A stretch of 18,816 bases of DNA from an uncultured Bacteroidota bacterium (GCA_903847905.1 CAINEZ010000237.1:1-18816), one strand, 5' to 3'; numbered from the stretch's first letter, positions 7,490-8,815 are shown. Notes: generated by a model not told the origin, from the letters alone. Numbers and translations are program-made.

Positions 7490-7720
7490 ATGAAAGAAAA
7501 ATTCTGGTGTGTTTCCTGTAAGAATATTTTTGAGGCTATAGGAGTTAAAAAAGAATGGAAAGATCCGGTCTATGGACCTTGCATGAAGTTTGTTGCCATT
7601 TGTTCTTCATGCAAAACAGAATGCGATGAATACCGCGACCCTAATGCGCAGAAAAAACAAAGTTCATCGCAGGAAATGGCTTGCGGAGGAAATTGTCACA
7701 GTTGTGAATTTAATCATTAA
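7490..7720 (+). CDS. Small cytoplasmic Cys-rich protein (zinc-ribbon-like CxxC...CxxC plus a C-terminal CGGNCHSC tail)
   Basis: 76 aa with 9 Cys: C7xxC10, C31, C38xxC41xxxC45, C65xxxC69xxC72, ending EFNH. It starts 3 nt after the acr3 stop. I recognise no family. Confidence 0.5.
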   Translation: MKEKFWCVSCKNIFEAIGVKKEWKDPVYGPCMKFVAICSSCKTECDEYRDPNAQKKQSSSQEMACGGNCHSCEFNH

Positions 7721-7745
7721 AAAATAAAACTTAAAAACAATTAAC

Positions 7746-8111
7746 ATGGAAAACGAAAAAAATTCAAAACAGGATTGTGGATGCGGAACCGATTGCTGCG
7801 CTCCAAAGAAAAGTAAATTGTGGATGAAAATAGTGTTTATTGTTATTGTTGTTGCAGCTATTGCAATTGTTACAATAAAATTAGTTAACAGTAGCAATAA
7901 CCCTATATCTAATGGAGCAACAATAGCAACAGAAAAATCTTCTTGCTGCGATTCAACTAAAACAAAAGTGCGCAACAATGAAAATAATTCATCTTGTTGT
8001 TCGAAATCAAAAAGCGATAAAGCGACGGAAAAATCTTCCTGTAATAATACCTCAACAACAAAAGCCTGTGAGCCCGAAAAAAATTCCTCATGTTGTTCGA
8101 AAAATAAATAA
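7746..8111 (+). CDS. Single-pass membrane-anchored Cys-rich repeat protein
   Basis: 121 aa. N-terminal DCGCGTDCC is followed by one TM helix (LWMKIVFIVIVVAAIAIVTIKLV). A Ser/Lys/Asn-rich tail carries EKSSCC / NSSCCSKSK / EKSSC / NSSCCSKNK. The stop overlaps the next start (TAATG). Confidence 0.55.
   Translation: MENEKNSKQDCGCGTDCCAPKKSKLWMKIVFIVIVVAAIAIVTIKLVNSSNNPISNGATIATEKSSCCDSTKTKVRNNENNSSCCSKSKSDKATEKSSCNNTSTTKACEPEKNSSCCSKNK
7929..8108 (+). repeat. Degenerate in-frame tandem duplication (96-nt period) inside the Cys-rich tail
   Basis: ACAGAAAAATCTTCTTGC at 7929 matches ACGGAAAAATCTTCCTGT at 8025, exactly 96 nt (32 aa) apart. Each unit ends with aaTTCaTCtTGTTGTTCGAAA (NSSCCSK). Confidence 0.6.
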
Positions 8112-8815
8112 TGATGGAAGAGTGGATCAGTCATGCAATGAATAGCGACCAAGCCGGAATAGCTGCATTAATTGCGGTTTTACTTCTTGGTTTGATAAGT
8201 GTTATTTCCTGCGGTTGCAATTTCGCAATTATTGGAATTGTTGCCGGTTATACCGGAACAGTTGGCTCTACCGGAAAAACAAAAGCAATTATCTGGAGCG
8301 GTATTTTTTTCCTGTTGGGAAATATAATCTCAATGGCTATTATTGGCGGAGTCATTGGATATGCAAGCAACCTGATAAGCGATTCGTTTGGAATTTATTG
8401 GAAAATATTTGCCGGATTTGTTATGATCTTTTTCGGATTATTTTCTCTTGACCTGCTACCATTCAGGATTCCCAGCATCTCAGTGAACTCAAAAAATAGT
8501 AATGGCAGTATTTTTTCATCCATTATATTCGGATTAACAGTAGGCGGACTTGCCACGGCATTCAACACCTGCTGCAATCCGGTTTTCCCGATAGTGCTCG
8601 CGGCAACATTTGTCAAAGGAAATGTTTTGTGGGGAATATTATTATTGCTTGCTTTCGCACTTGGATACGGTTTGCCACTGGCTGCATCAATGGTAGGTAT
8701 TGGTTTCGGTTTCGGAAAAATTTCAAAAAGAGCATCAACCTTTGGGAAGATAATAAAGTATGCTGGCGGAATTACGCTTTTGATTATAGGTTTTTATTTT
8801 TTAATTACTATTTGA
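8111..8815 (+). CDS. Second DsbD/CcdA-like polytopic membrane protein with atypical CGC and CC motifs
   Basis: 234 aa with about 6 TM segments. Intramembrane motifs are VISCGCNFAIIG (TM1) and AFNTCCNPVFP (TM4). It is translationally coupled to the upstream Cys-rich gene and ends 4 nt before hgcA. Confidence 0.65.
   Translation: MMEEWISHAMNSDQAGIAALIAVLLLGLISVISCGCNFAIIGIVAGYTGTVGSTGKTKAIIWSGIFFLLGNIISMAIIGGVIGYASNLISDSFGIYWKIFAGFVMIFFGLFSLDLLPFRIPSISVNSKNSNGSIFSSIIFGLTVGGLATAFNTCCNPVFPIVLAATFVKGNVLWGILLLLAFALGYGLPLAASMVGIGFGFGKISKRASTFGKIIKYAGGITLLIIGFYFLITI

What the first reader, a model, noticed from the sequence alone, without database searches (positions are those of the whole stretch)
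7490..8815. Uncharacterised three-gene Cys-rich module immediately upstream of hgcA
Three genes fill the space between acr3 and hgcA. They are a 76-aa zinc-ribbon-like protein with a CGGNCHSC tail, a 121-aa single-pass membrane protein, and a 6-TM DsbD/CcdA-like protein. The DsbD-like protein has CGC (TM1) and CC (TM4) in place of the usual single Cys per half. The second and third genes overlap (TAATG at 8109-8113), and the third ends 4 nt before hgcA. No accessory proteins for substrate delivery to HgcA are established. Intramembrane vicinal cysteines recall MerT/MerC-type Hg(II) carriers. I infer this may be a metal(loid) capture and translocation path feeding the HgcA TM domain and the HgcB CC tail, and I do not recognise it as a described system.
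Basis: partly seen in the sequence, partly recalled or inferred. Interest (0 to 1): 0.75.

Follow-up and report, generated by a model that had tools for sequence, protein, structure and literature searches.

The report
Cysteine-lined membrane module beside mercury-methylation genes
Directly upstream of the mercury-methylating genes hgcAB lies a conserved, apparently undescribed pair of cysteine-rich membrane proteins that recurs across phyla next to hgcAB or the arsenic methylase ArsM, making it a concrete candidate for the unknown route by which toxic metals reach or leave these enzymes.

Summary
They are not one unit.

**P2 (121 aa) and P3 (234 aa)** form a conserved pair.
- P3 has the CcdA/DsbD_2 fold but carries at least 3 intramembrane Cys in all 113 members examined.
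- P2 has a cytoplasmic CGC..CCxP arm, one TM helix and a Cys-rich tail ending CCPKK.
- Across 65 informative Bacteroidota species loci, hgcA follows P3 directly in 54 (median gap about 9 nt) and lies downstream in the cluster in 57.
- In nine loci with 35-44% identical P3 (Planctomycetota and Verrucomicrobiota where named), the core is always ArsR, partner, P3-like. HgcAB is in the cluster in four and ArsM in three.

**The link is not obligate.**
- Four Bacteroidota loci are arsR-arsC-P2-P3-acr3 with no hgcAB.
- Only 9 of 80 diverse hgcA loci carry P3.

**P1 (76 aa, 9 conserved Cys)** occurs only in a narrow clade, always within the hgc/ars cluster.

**Most likely function:** an ArsR-controlled thiol relay or transporter for thiophilic metal(loid)s that works with methylating enzymes. 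The direction of transport is unresolved. ArsC::P2 fusions favour export.

I found no description of it in the searched literature.

The parts
7490..7720 (+). P1: 76-aa soluble protein with 9 Cys (C7, C10, C31, C38, C41, C45, C65, C69, C72). It has two CxxC pairs and a C-terminal CxxxCxxC tail.
   Evidence: ORF. No Pfam or NCBIfam hit. No TM segment. 14 homologue clusters at 71-100% identity with the Cys conserved. Found only inside hgc/ars clusters of a narrow clade.
7746..8111 (+). P2: 121-aa single-pass membrane protein, the Cys-rich tethered partner of P3.
   Evidence: ORF. One TM at residues 29-47. Family architecture conserved in 62 of 64 loci upstream of P3. Equivalent partner proteins occur in nine loci with 35-44% identical P3 (sequences read).
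7776..7805 (+). P2 N-terminal arm CGCGTDCCAP (residues 11-20). Family consensus is DCGC-x(2-5)-CC-x-P-KK. Predicted cytoplasmic.
   Evidence: Sequence and family. Four K in the nine residues before the TM against one in the eight after it (sequence). ArsC is fused in frame to this end in L010, L024, L049 and L056. Resembles ArsM N-termini and HgcA N-terminal extensions.
7887..8108 (+). P2 C-terminal tail with repeated SSCC motifs, ending SSCCSKNK. Family consensus ends ...SSCCPKK. Predicted periplasmic.
   Evidence: A C-terminal CCP(x)K tail is conserved in partners from other lineages (SCCPPK, GCCPSGPK, SCCPGSGK, SGCCPK).
8111..8815 (+). P3: 234-aa six-TM protein of the DsbD_2/CcdA fold, belonging to a multi-Cys subfamily.
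   Evidence: Pfam DsbD_2 35.9 bits. ArsG model only 34 bits against a cut-off of 200. hhalign to ArsG gives 96% probability over the full length. AF2 pLDDT 70, and the only PDB fold match is CcdA 5VKV at TM 0.51-0.53. 153 representative clusters at E<=1e-10.
8210..8218 (+). P3 TM1 motif Cys34-Gly-Cys36, located at the break in helix 1.
   Evidence: Helix break at residues 34-36 in the model. At least 2 Cys in this window in 110 of 113 family members.
8570..8581 (+). P3 TM4 motif Cys154-Cys155-Asn-Pro, located at the break in helix 4.
   Evidence: Helix break at residues 156-157. C154 aligns with the TM4 Cys of ArsG. The family carries CC or CxxxC(C)NP here.
8820..9851 (+). HgcA corrinoid protein. 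It starts 4 nt after P3 and has no Cys/Sec-rich N-terminal extension.
   Evidence: NF040863 438 bits. TAA at 8802-8804 in the HgcA frame. N-termini aligned.
9850..10152 (+). HgcB ferredoxin with a C-terminal ...KDKCC tail.
   Evidence: NF040864 125 bits. Sequence.
6377..7486 (+). Acr3 arsenite efflux permease. Its stop lies 3 nt before P1.
   Evidence: TIGR00832 440 bits.
10261..10698 (+). LMW-PTP-type ArsC-like arsenate reductase, a cluster member. The same protein type is fused to P2 in four other species.
   Evidence: TIGR02691 132 bits, below its 174-bit cut-off. Pfam LMWPc 73 bits. Fusions.
2813..3112 (+). ArsR-family regulator at the head of the tightly packed gene array 2813-10152 (intergenic gaps of 50 nt or less).
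   Evidence: ORF and spacing. An ArsR-like hit or HTH_5 gene lies upstream of P2-P3 in most Bacteroidota loci and in all nine distant contexts. This ORF itself was not run through Pfam or NCBIfam.

Best explanation
P2 and P3 form a two-protein, ArsR-controlled thiol relay or transporter for thiophilic metal(loid) species: Hg(II)/MeHg and As(III)/methyl-As(III). It works alongside cytoplasmic metal(loid) methyltransferases, which are HgcAB here and in most Bacteroidota, and ArsM or HgcAB in other phyla.

P3 is a CcdA-fold membrane protein. Its two canonical mid-membrane cysteines have been expanded to a site of 3-5 thiols (CGC at the TM1 break, CC-N-P at the TM4 break). That site could bind and pass a soft metal(loid) by ligand exchange.

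P2 is tethered beside P3 by one helix. It presents a cytoplasmic CGC..CCxP arm, on the side of HgcB's CC tail, the HgcA corrinoid domain and ArsC. It also presents a Cys-rich tail ending CCPKK on the periplasmic side. This gives a chain of thiol stations from cytoplasm to periplasm.

**Shown:** gene reality, fold, Cys placement, topology indicators, operon packing, and strong cross-phylum association with ArsR, HgcAB and ArsM.

**Inferred:** metal binding, transport, and physical coupling to HgcAB.

**Direction is unresolved.** I lean towards export or hand-off of the product or of As(III), roughly 55:45 over import. The reasons are that ArsC is fused to the cytoplasmic arm in four species and that the whole cluster is a detoxification/efflux-type ArsR regulon.

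P1 is a clade-restricted, soluble 9-Cys protein. It is probably a cytoplasmic metal-binding helper of the same cluster.
For: **Association**
- hgcA is directly downstream of P3 in 54 of 65 informative species-level Bacteroidota loci (median gap about 9 nt), and lies downstream in the cluster in 57 of 65.
HgcAB is in the cluster in 4 (L151, L154, L156, L158).
- ArsM passing the NF008823 cut-off (319-365 bits against 263) is in the cluster in 3 (L150, L155, L157).
- P3-like genes also appeared upstream of distant hgcA in L102, L130 and L131.

**Thiol chemistry**
- All 113 family members carry at least 3 Cys in the TM1 and TM4 windows combined, against 2 in canonical CcdA. The arrangements are vicinal: CC, CxC or CxxC.
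- The Cys sit at helix breaks in a CcdA-fold model (pLDDT 70; 5VKV TM 0.51-0.53).

**Partner architecture**
- Conserved across lineages: Cys-rich N-arm, then TM, then a C-terminal CCP(x)K.
- The N-arm resembles ArsM N-termini (GCGCAPSGCCSD, GSCCQPSSSCCGS) and HgcA N-terminal Cys/Sec extensions (SCUPPKK, CCAPN, NCGCG) (Haft & Gwadz).

**Topology and coupling**
- ArsC::P2 in-frame fusions occur in L010, L024, L049 and L056.
- When P3 is lost, the P2 arm plus TM can persist next to hgcA (L077, L149).

**Open question addressed**
- Hg(II) uptake and MeHg efflux routes in methylators are described as unknown (PMC7438021; PMC12484752).
Against: - There are no binding, transport or expression data. 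Everything is comparative.
- P3 is homologous to electron transporters, so its cysteines could be redox-active rather than metal ligands.
- The association is not obligate in either direction. Four Bacteroidota loci keep P2-P3 with acr3 but no hgcAB, and four more have neither adjacent.
- Only 9 of 80 diverse hgcA loci carry P3, and about a dozen have ArsC-HgcA-HgcB-Acr3 without it.
- Two of nine distant contexts have no methyltransferase (L152, L153).
- Distance-matrix correlations show only that the whole cluster is co-inherited, with no specific P3-HgcA signal.
- The idea that P2's arm replaces the HgcA N-terminal extension in trans is weakened. L151 and L154 carry both.
- The AF2 model has only moderate confidence, and Cys-Cys distances could not be measured.
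Confidence: 0.5

Rival explanations
1. Import relay. P2's periplasmic tail captures Hg(II) or As(III). P3 carries it inward. P2's cytoplasmic arm hands it to HgcB or HgcA (or ArsM). The logic parallels MerP-MerT-MerA. This is a directional sub-case of the best explanation, so part of its probability lies inside that explanation's confidence.
For: - The thiol stations and adjacency are the same as for the best explanation.
- P3 and hgcA are separated by a few nucleotides, which suggests co-translation and possibly a complex.
- Hg(II) uptake in methylators is reported as active and of unknown route (PMC7438021).
- The mer operon shows that importing a toxic metal for cytoplasmic detoxification is a real strategy (own knowledge).
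Against: - ArsC, which produces cytoplasmic As(III), is fused to P2's cytoplasmic arm in four species. That fits outward channelling better.
- The clusters carry efflux pumps (Acr3, ArsP, CDF, P-type ATPase) and an ArsR-type repressor.
- No As(III) importer is known in ars operons (own knowledge).
- P2-P3 persist without any methyltransferase in several loci.
Confidence: 0.22
2. Thiol-disulfide electron relay. P3 works like CcdA, passing reducing equivalents from the cytoplasm to the Cys-rich periplasmic part of P2. That keeps P2 reduced so it can sequester metal(loid)s outside the cytoplasm, or reduce a periplasmic substrate. Proximity to hgcAB or arsM would then reflect shared regulation only.
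For: - P3 passes the DsbD_2 threshold and has the CcdA fold, with Cys at the canonical TM1 and TM4 breaks.
- Outside Bacteroidota the partner carries a domain of about 130 aa with weak thioredoxin-fold signals (L102: Thioredoxin_3 E=0.008) and an FP[CA]V stretch that I read as a thioredoxin-type cis-Pro loop. This is typical of CcdA clients.
- CcdA plus thioredoxin-like genes in ars operons were proposed as a redox system by Castillo & Saier 2010 (PMC2963123).
- The paralogous ArsE/F/G-type set lies just upstream in this window.
Against: - The partner domain lacks a CxxC active site, and Bacteroidota P2 lacks the domain entirely.
- Extra vicinal Cys (3-5 instead of 2) and loss of the flanking Pro residues are not expected for a simple dithiol/disulfide shuttle.
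- A redox client has no obvious need for a cytoplasmic Cys arm, or for fusion to ArsC.
Confidence: 0.2
3. Ordinary ars-island passenger. P3 is an ArsG-like organoarsenical efflux permease and P2 its helper. hgcAB simply inserted into an ars operon in Bacteroidota, with no functional coupling to methylation.
For: - The closest named family is ArsG.
- arsR-arsC-P2-P3-acr3 exists without hgcAB (L040, L042, L043, L063).
- hgcAB-ars colocalisation is already known (PMC7438021; bioRxiv 10.1101/2022.10.17.512643).
- Genuine ArsF and ArsG also occur upstream of hgcA in L136.
- The Mantel test shows no specific P3-HgcA signal.
Against: - P3 scores 34 bits against the ArsG cut-off of 200, and P2 is not ArsF.
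- Independent recurrence beside HgcAB in distant lineages, and beside ArsM, is hard to explain by one insertion.
- Many ars-hgc clusters lack P2-P3, so it is not a generic ars component.
Confidence: 0.08

Closest known systems
MerP-MerT(-MerC/MerF/MerE) Hg(II) uptake relay of mer operons
   Same: Works like it in outline. Vicinal or closely spaced Cys lie inside TM helices and there are Cys stations on both sides of the membrane. The genes sit next to the cytoplasmic enzyme that transforms the metal and under a metal-sensing regulator (motifs; Mer details from own knowledge).
   Different: No sequence or fold relationship. P3 has the six-TM CcdA fold, and no Mer family appeared in the Pfam or NCBIfam scans. 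The regulator is ArsR-type, not MerR. The partner enzyme is a methyltransferase, not MerA. Direction is unknown.
ArsG / ArsF of the ArsEFG organoarsenical system (NCBIfam NF040495 / NF040494)
   Same: P3 and ArsG are full-length homologues (hhalign 96%). Gene order is the same: a small anchored Cys protein, then a DsbD_2 protein with overlapping stop and start. Both occur in ars islands. A true ArsF-ArsG pair lies upstream of hgcA in L136.
   Different: P3 scores 34 bits against a cut-off of 200, whereas the window's own ArsG (4624-5331) scores 316. ArsG has one Cys per half (SPCP, FCP) while P3 has CGC and CC. P2 has no ArsF thioredoxin-like CxxC domain.
CcdA / DsbD transmembrane electron transporters (Pfam PF02683/PF13386; PDB 5VKV)
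   Same: Same fold and predicted topology, with Cys at the TM1 and TM4 helix breaks.
   Different: 3-5 Cys instead of 2. The flanking Pro residues are replaced by C-x-C-N and C-C-N-P. The context is ArsR plus a methyltransferase, not cytochrome c maturation. The partner lacks CxxC.
ArsP methylarsenite efflux permease (PF03773) and ArsD metallochaperone
   Same: ArsP uses an intramembrane CxC pair, seen here as TPFCSCSAIP in the window's ArsP_1 protein at 5336-6373. ArsD uses CC pairs to hand As(III) to a pump (own knowledge). These are functional analogies for P3 and P2 respectively.
   Different: No homology. P3 and P2 hit neither family.
N-terminal Cys/Sec extension of HgcA (PCUGP; Haft & Gwadz 2022) and N-terminal Cys motifs of ArsM
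   Same: The P2 arm DCGC..CC[APQT]PKK resembles extensions such as SCUPPKK, CCAPN and NCGCG, and ArsM N-termini such as GCGCAPSGCCSD. HgcA-anchored loci with P2 or P3 had no such extension (0 of 9 against 35 of 63; Fisher p=0.002, not corrected for phylogeny).
   Different: P2 is a separate membrane-anchored protein. The complementarity is not strict, because L151 and L154 have both. The motifs are short and compositionally simple.

Membership tests
DsbD_2 / CcdA family (Pfam PF13386, PF02683) | Profile HMM score above the curated gathering threshold | tested here: met
   P3 scores 35.9 bits against DsbD_2 (cut-off 24.9), covering residues 23-228 and profile positions 2-198 of 199.
DsbD_2 / CcdA family (Pfam PF13386, PF02683) | Six TM helices, N-out/C-out, with TM1 and TM4 broken mid-membrane (CcdA fold) | tested here: met
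   Six hydrophobic segments with alternating K+R counts of 0/2/0/2/0/4/0. The AF2 model (pLDDT 70) shows breaks at residues 34-36 and 156-157. The only PDB fold match is CcdA 5VKV, TM 0.51-0.53 over 211 columns.
DsbD_2 / CcdA family (Pfam PF13386, PF02683) | One redox-active Cys in TM1 and one in TM4, in Pro-flanked motifs, forming a reversible disulfide fed by thioredoxin | tested here: inconclusive
   Cys occupy the equivalent positions but are doubled (CGC, CC), and the flanking Pro pattern is replaced by C-x-C-N and C-C-N-P. Redox cycling cannot be tested with these tools.
ArsG aromatic aminobenzylarsenical efflux permease (NCBIfam NF040495) | Equivalog model score at or above 200 bits | tested here: not met
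   P3 scores 34.4 bits. The window's true ArsG (4624-5331) scores 316 bits.
ArsF family (NCBIfam NF040494), as identity of P2 | Model score at or above 60 bits, and a thioredoxin-like domain with CxxC | tested here: not met
   P2 has no hit. The window's ArsF-like protein at 4183-4617 scores 94 bits. P2 has no globular domain.
MerT/MerC/MerF/MerE Hg(II) transporters | Sequence membership in a Mer transporter family | tested here: not met
   No Mer family among the Pfam or NCBIfam hits at E<=0.1 for P1, P2 or P3.
MerT/MerC/MerF/MerE Hg(II) transporters | Vicinal or CxC cysteines inside a TM helix that bind Hg(II) | not testable with these tools
   The motifs are present. Binding has not been assayed.
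MerT/MerC/MerF/MerE Hg(II) transporters | mer operon context (MerR, MerA) | tested here: not met
   The context is ArsR, ArsC, Acr3 and HgcAB. No MerR or MerA in the window's ORF list, or named among genes of the looked-up clusters.
hgcAB-linked accessory gene (operational definition: conserved adjacency to hgcA) | Adjacent to hgcA across many independent genomes | tested here: met
   Adjacent in 54 of 65, and downstream in the cluster in 57 of 65, Bacteroidota species loci. Also seen in L151, L154, L156, L158, L102, L130 and L131.
hgcAB-linked accessory gene (operational definition: conserved adjacency to hgcA) | Present at most hgcA loci (general component of Hg methylation) | tested here: not met
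   P3 is present at 9 of 80 hgcA-anchored metagenome loci. That is 6 of 10 where HgcA is at least 63% identical to the window's, and 3 of about 65 among more distant ones.
Zinc-ribbon proteins (as identity of P1) | Two CxxC knuckles forming a Zn(Cys)4 ribbon fold | tested here: inconclusive
   C7-x2-C10 and C38-x2-C41 are present and conserved. There is no family hit and no PDB sequence match (best E=1). No structure was predicted for P1.

The most novel reading that the evidence does not exclude
P2-P3, with its longer partner forms in Planctomycetota and Verrucomicrobiota, is the missing membrane component of anaerobic metal(loid) methylation. It would be a dedicated thiol-relay conduit, physically coupled to HgcAB or ArsM, that either delivers Hg(II)/As(III) to the methyltransferase or expels MeHg/methyl-As(III). 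It would also tie HgcAB's native role to an ArsR-governed arsenic/mercury detoxification pathway.
Probability: 0.35. Interest if true: 0.85.

Novelty: new variant of a known kind. Interest (0 to 1): 0.74.

Why it matters
How Hg(II) enters methylating anaerobes and how methylmercury leaves them is still described as unknown (PMC7438021; PMC12484752). Why hgcAB so often sits among arsenic genes is also debated (bioRxiv 10.1101/2022.10.17.512643).

This is a conserved, thiol-lined membrane pair that is translationally packed against hgcA in most hgcAB-bearing Bacteroidota, a group reported as abundant among environmental methylators. It reappears beside either HgcAB or ArsM in other phyla. That gives the field a specific, mutable candidate for the transport or hand-off step.

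It also provides a marker that could refine predictions of methylation capacity from metagenomes. And it is a new functional variant of the CcdA fold, in which thiols appear to be used for ligand passage rather than only for electron passage.

Tried and rejected
1. **AF2 of P3 with a 24-sequence alignment.** It gave pLDDT 51 and was discarded. A 114-sequence alignment spanning phyla gave pLDDT 70.
2. **Profile searches of P3 and P1 against PDB sequences.** No match for P3, and only E=1 noise for P1.
3. **'P1 travels only with acr3'.** Suggested by L001, L002 and L062. Rejected after L067 (P1-HgcA-HgcB with no acr3 in the 1.1 kb upstream) and weakened by L149, where the contig starts 10 nt before P1, followed by truncated P2 and HgcA.
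4. **'P2's arm replaces the HgcA N-terminal Cys/Sec extension in trans'.** The HgcA-anchored sample supported it (0 of 9 against 35 of 63). L151 and L154 carry both, so I keep it only as a motif resemblance.
5. **Mantel correlations of P3, HgcA, Acr3 and ArsC distance matrices.** All r values were 0.36-0.67 with no specific P3-HgcA signal, so the test does not discriminate.
6. **Sigma-70 promoter and terminator scan of 2000-11400.** Promoter-like sites did not exceed shuffles, terminator-like sites exceeded them only marginally (11 against 6.0, sd 2.9), and none fell between genes of the array. Bacteroidota promoters are not covered by the scan.
7. **Pfam and NCBIfam on partner proteins from other lineages.** Only sub-threshold thioredoxin-fold hints.
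8. **Nine literature searches** for hgcA with CcdA, DsbD, cytochrome c biogenesis, hgcC, cysteine-rich transporter, synteny, and arsM with CcdA. None described this pair. The nearest was Castillo & Saier 2010, noting CcdA and thioredoxin genes in ars operons.
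Full report
**1. Observation**

The window carries a tightly packed, same-strand gene array.
- Upstream: an ArsR-family ORF (2813-3112, not itself profiled), three ArsF-like paralogues, ArsG (316 bits), an ArsP_1 permease, and Acr3 (6377-7486).
- The three ORFs of the finding follow.
- Downstream: HgcA (8820-9851, NF040863 438 bits), HgcB (9850-10152), and an LMW-PTP-type ArsC-like protein.

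- P1 is 7490-7720, 76 aa, with the tail ACGGNCHSCEFNH.
- P2 is 7746-8111, 121 aa, with one TM at residues 29-47.
- P3 is 8111-8815, 234 aa.
- The TAATG overlap lies at 8109-8113, and 4 nt separate P3 from hgcA.

P3 passes the Pfam DsbD_2 threshold (35.9 against 24.9 bits) but scores only 34 bits against the ArsG model (cut-off 200). P1 and P2 match no family.

**2. They are real genes**

- P3 has more than 270 homologue clusters in the word-indexed search, with the best 120 at 53-100% identity.
- An exhaustive profile search of 1.84 billion representatives found 921 hits at E<=1e-3, 153 at E<=1e-10 and 44 at E<=1e-30. This is a small, distinct subfamily.
- C34, C36, C154, C155 and the following N-P are invariant or nearly so.
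- P1 has only 14 clusters, at 71-100% identity, with all nine Cys positions conserved.
- P2-type ORFs with the motif sit upstream of P3 in 62 of 64 loci.

**3. Co-occurrence anchored on P3**

A scan of one genome per GTDB species returned 66 loci, all Bacteroidota MAGs where the title names a taxon. Of 65 informative loci:
- hgcA follows P3 directly in 54, with a median gap of about 9 nt.
- It follows within 2 kb in two more.
- It follows after acr3 in one.
- Four loci are arsR-arsC-P2-P3-acr3 with no hgcAB (L040, L042, L043, L063). They belong to the same clade as hgcA-positive L029 and L035.
- Four have neither gene adjacent.

The typical Bacteroidota arrangement is arsR-arsC-P2-P3-hgcA-hgcB-acr3.

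**4. Co-occurrence anchored on HgcA**

A metagenome scan with an HgcA profile returned 80 loci at 47-80% identity to the window's HgcA.
- The P3 family was upstream in nine.
- Six of these are among the ten informative loci with HgcA at least 63% identical.
- Three are among the distant, GC-richer ones (L102, L130, L131).

Other arrangements were also seen.
- About a dozen loci are ArsC-HgcA-HgcB-Acr3 without P2 or P3.
- L077 has P2 but no P3.
- L136 has genuine ArsF (102 bits) and ArsG (266 bits) directly upstream of hgcA.

The pair is therefore a lineage-enriched accessory, not a universal part of Hg methylation.

**5. Beyond Bacteroidota**

I searched with an alignment of distant subfamily members. 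This gave 845 hits at E<=1e-10, with Planctomycetota and Verrucomicrobiota among the named sources. All nine show an ArsR-family gene, a partner with no Pfam hit, and then the P3-like gene.

| Context | Loci |
|---|---|
| HgcA-HgcB in the cluster | L151, L154, L156, L158 |
| ArsM adjacent | L150, L155, L157 |
| Neither | L152, L153 |

The ArsM proteins pass the NF008823 cut-off at 365, 319 and 334 bits against 263. In seven of nine independent contexts, then, the pair sits beside a metal(loid) methyltransferase of one of two unrelated enzyme types.

**6. Anatomy of the pair**

*P3*
- It is a full-length homologue of ArsG (hhalign 96%). C154 aligns with ArsG's TM4 Cys, and the CGC lies within about three residues of the TM1 Cys.
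- With a 114-sequence alignment, AF2 gave pLDDT 70 and pTM 0.64. TM1 breaks at residues 34-36 and TM4 at 156-157.
- The only PDB fold match is the CcdA NMR structure 5VKV, at TM 0.51-0.53.
- Loop charges indicate N-out/C-out topology.
- Across 113 members, the Cys counts in the TM1/TM4 windows are 2/2 in 68, 2/3 in 17, 3/2 in 12, 2/1 in 13 and 1/3 in 3. The total is never below three.
- Lower-scoring relatives revert to canonical PCxxxP motifs.

*P2*
- Bacteroidota P2 reads DCGC-x(2-5)-CC-x-P-KK, then a TM helix, then a Cys-rich tail ending SSCCPKK.
- Partners in the distant loci have the same plan. Most add a periplasmic domain of about 130 aa with weak thioredoxin-fold signals and no CxxC. 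They end in CCP(x)K.
- In L010, L024, L049 and L056, ArsC is fused in frame to the P2 N-terminus. Together with the positive-inside pattern around the TM helix, this places the arm in the cytoplasm and links it to the site of As(III) production.

**7. Motif resemblance**

Haft & Gwadz reported that most HgcA proteins carry an N-terminal extension with PCUGP. In my HgcA-anchored sample, many distant HgcA proteins have in-frame upstream extensions such as SCUPPKKAAQV, TPCCAPN, CUPQQQK and NCGCGSTVK.
- None of the nine P2/P3-bearing loci had one, against 35 of 63 without P2/P3 (Fisher p=0.002, not corrected for phylogeny).
- The background rate for other ORFs was 13 of 206.
- ArsM N-termini next to the pair read GCGCAPSGCCSD and GSCCQPSSSCCGS.

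The window's HgcA has no extension, because a TAA at 8802-8804 closes its frame. However, L151 and L154 have both a partner and a Cys-rich HgcA N-terminus. I therefore treat this as a shared class of ligand-binding arm, not as strict replacement.

**8. P1**

P1 occurs in eight loci.

| Arrangement | Loci |
|---|---|
| Acr3-P1-P2-P3(-HgcA) | window, L002, L062, L147, L148 |
| P2-P3-HgcA-HgcB-Acr3-P1-ArsC | L001 |
| P1-HgcA-HgcB, with no ars genes or P2-P3 | L067 |
| P1, a 49-aa P2 truncated after the TM, then HgcA | L149 |

 P1 always lies in the hgc/ars cluster but is restricted to a narrow clade. It cannot be assigned specifically to acr3 or to hgcA. It is soluble and has a zinc-ribbon-like CxxC...CxxC spacing plus a CxxxCxxC tail. 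Its fold is untested.

**9. Mechanism**

The features listed below fit a thiol relay or transporter for soft metal(loid)s better than a plain electron shuttle.
- At least three vicinal intramembrane thiols on a CcdA scaffold.
- Cys stations on both faces of the membrane.
- Invariable ArsR-family control.
- Fusion of the partner arm to ArsC.
- Recurrent pairing with two unrelated metal(loid) methyltransferases.

Comparable motifs are used by MerT, MerF and MerE, by ArsP (CxC), and by ArsR and ArsD (own knowledge). The redox alternative remains serious because of the fold and the thioredoxin-like partner domain.

Direction cannot be decided computationally. The ArsC fusions and the efflux-type companions (Acr3, ArsP, CDF, P-type ATPase) tilt me towards outward hand-off. 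The mer precedent and the tight P3-hgcA packing keep import plausible.

**10. Novelty**

Colocalisation of hgcAB with ars genes is known (PMC7438021). CcdA and thioredoxin genes in ars operons were noted in 2010 (PMC2963123). No searched paper mentions this multi-Cys DsbD_2 protein, its partner, or their link to hgcAB or ArsM.

I classify it as a new variant of a known kind: a thiol-based metal(loid) membrane system built on the CcdA/ArsG fold.

**11. Verdict**

There is a genuine hgcAB-linked, Cys-rich membrane module. It is a two-gene core plus a clade-specific third gene. It is linked to metal(loid) methylation and ArsR regulons in general rather than to Hg alone. Its direction of action is unknown.

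Noticed in passing
window 2485-6373: A complete ArsE/F/G-type cluster sits directly upstream of acr3. It comprises a thioredoxin-like ORF (2566-2808), an ArsR-family ORF, three tandem ArsF paralogues (3163-3594, 3591-4160, 4183-4617), ArsG (316 bits) and an ArsP_1 permease with TPFCSCSAIP. The window therefore holds two paralogous 'small Cys protein plus DsbD_2' pairs.
   Followed up: partly
L010 9283-9999; L024 6145-6840; L049 9260-9997; L056 9262-9999: In-frame fusions of LMW-PTP ArsC to the N-terminus of P2 (231-245 aa ORFs) in four Bacteroidota species. This is a Rosetta-stone link between arsenate reduction and the P2 arm.
   Followed up: partly
L142, L107, L118, L133, L134, L112, L139, L141, L144 (upstream of the HgcA match): In-frame TGA immediately after Cys in N-terminal extensions of distant HgcA proteins (for example SCUPPKKAAQV and CUPQQQK). 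This is consistent with the Cys-Sec extension reported by Haft & Gwadz. Other loci have CC or CGC variants instead.
   Followed up: partly
L157 1-1603: In a Verrucomicrobiota contig, a DsbD_2 gene, a DUF6951 gene and an MtrA-like corrinoid protein (NF002126, 186 bits) lie just upstream of ArsR-ArsM-partner-P3-like-Acr3. This is a second corrinoid link in an arsenic methylation cluster.
   Followed up: no
L069 613-1410: An EFR1-family ferredoxin/flavodoxin-like gene (139 bits) is inserted between P3 and hgcA. It is a possible electron donor for HgcB. Other gapped loci (L071, L073) carry unrelated small ORFs in the gap instead.
   Followed up: partly
L102 3958-4944; L158 1262-3238: Other metal pumps are embedded in the same clusters. 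L102 has a CDF (ZitB-like, 243 bits) between P3-like and hgcA. L158 has a P-type ATPase between ArsR and the partner.
   Followed up: no
L136 181-1409: A genuine ArsF (102 bits) and ArsG (266 bits) lie directly upstream of an HgcA that carries an LCCCNSQPP N-terminal extension. DsbD_2-type pairs of either subfamily therefore recur next to hgcA.
   Followed up: partly
L101 2017-3724: Three consecutive Cys-rich ORFs (285, 130 and 150 aa, read by eye as DGC/zinc-binding-like) precede ArsC-HgcA in a Bacteroidota-type locus that lacks P2-P3. A Pfam DGC-domain gene also lies in the L152 cluster.
   Followed up: no
L063 1117-1777: In one of the hgcAB-less P2-P3-acr3 loci, the P3 match is split into two overlapping segments. 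This is either a frameshift or an assembly error, and could mean decay after hgcAB loss.
   Followed up: no
window 7664-8152 (- strand): A 162-aa antisense ORF spans P2. It mirrors the low-complexity K/S/C-rich coding strand and is most likely spurious.
   Followed up: no
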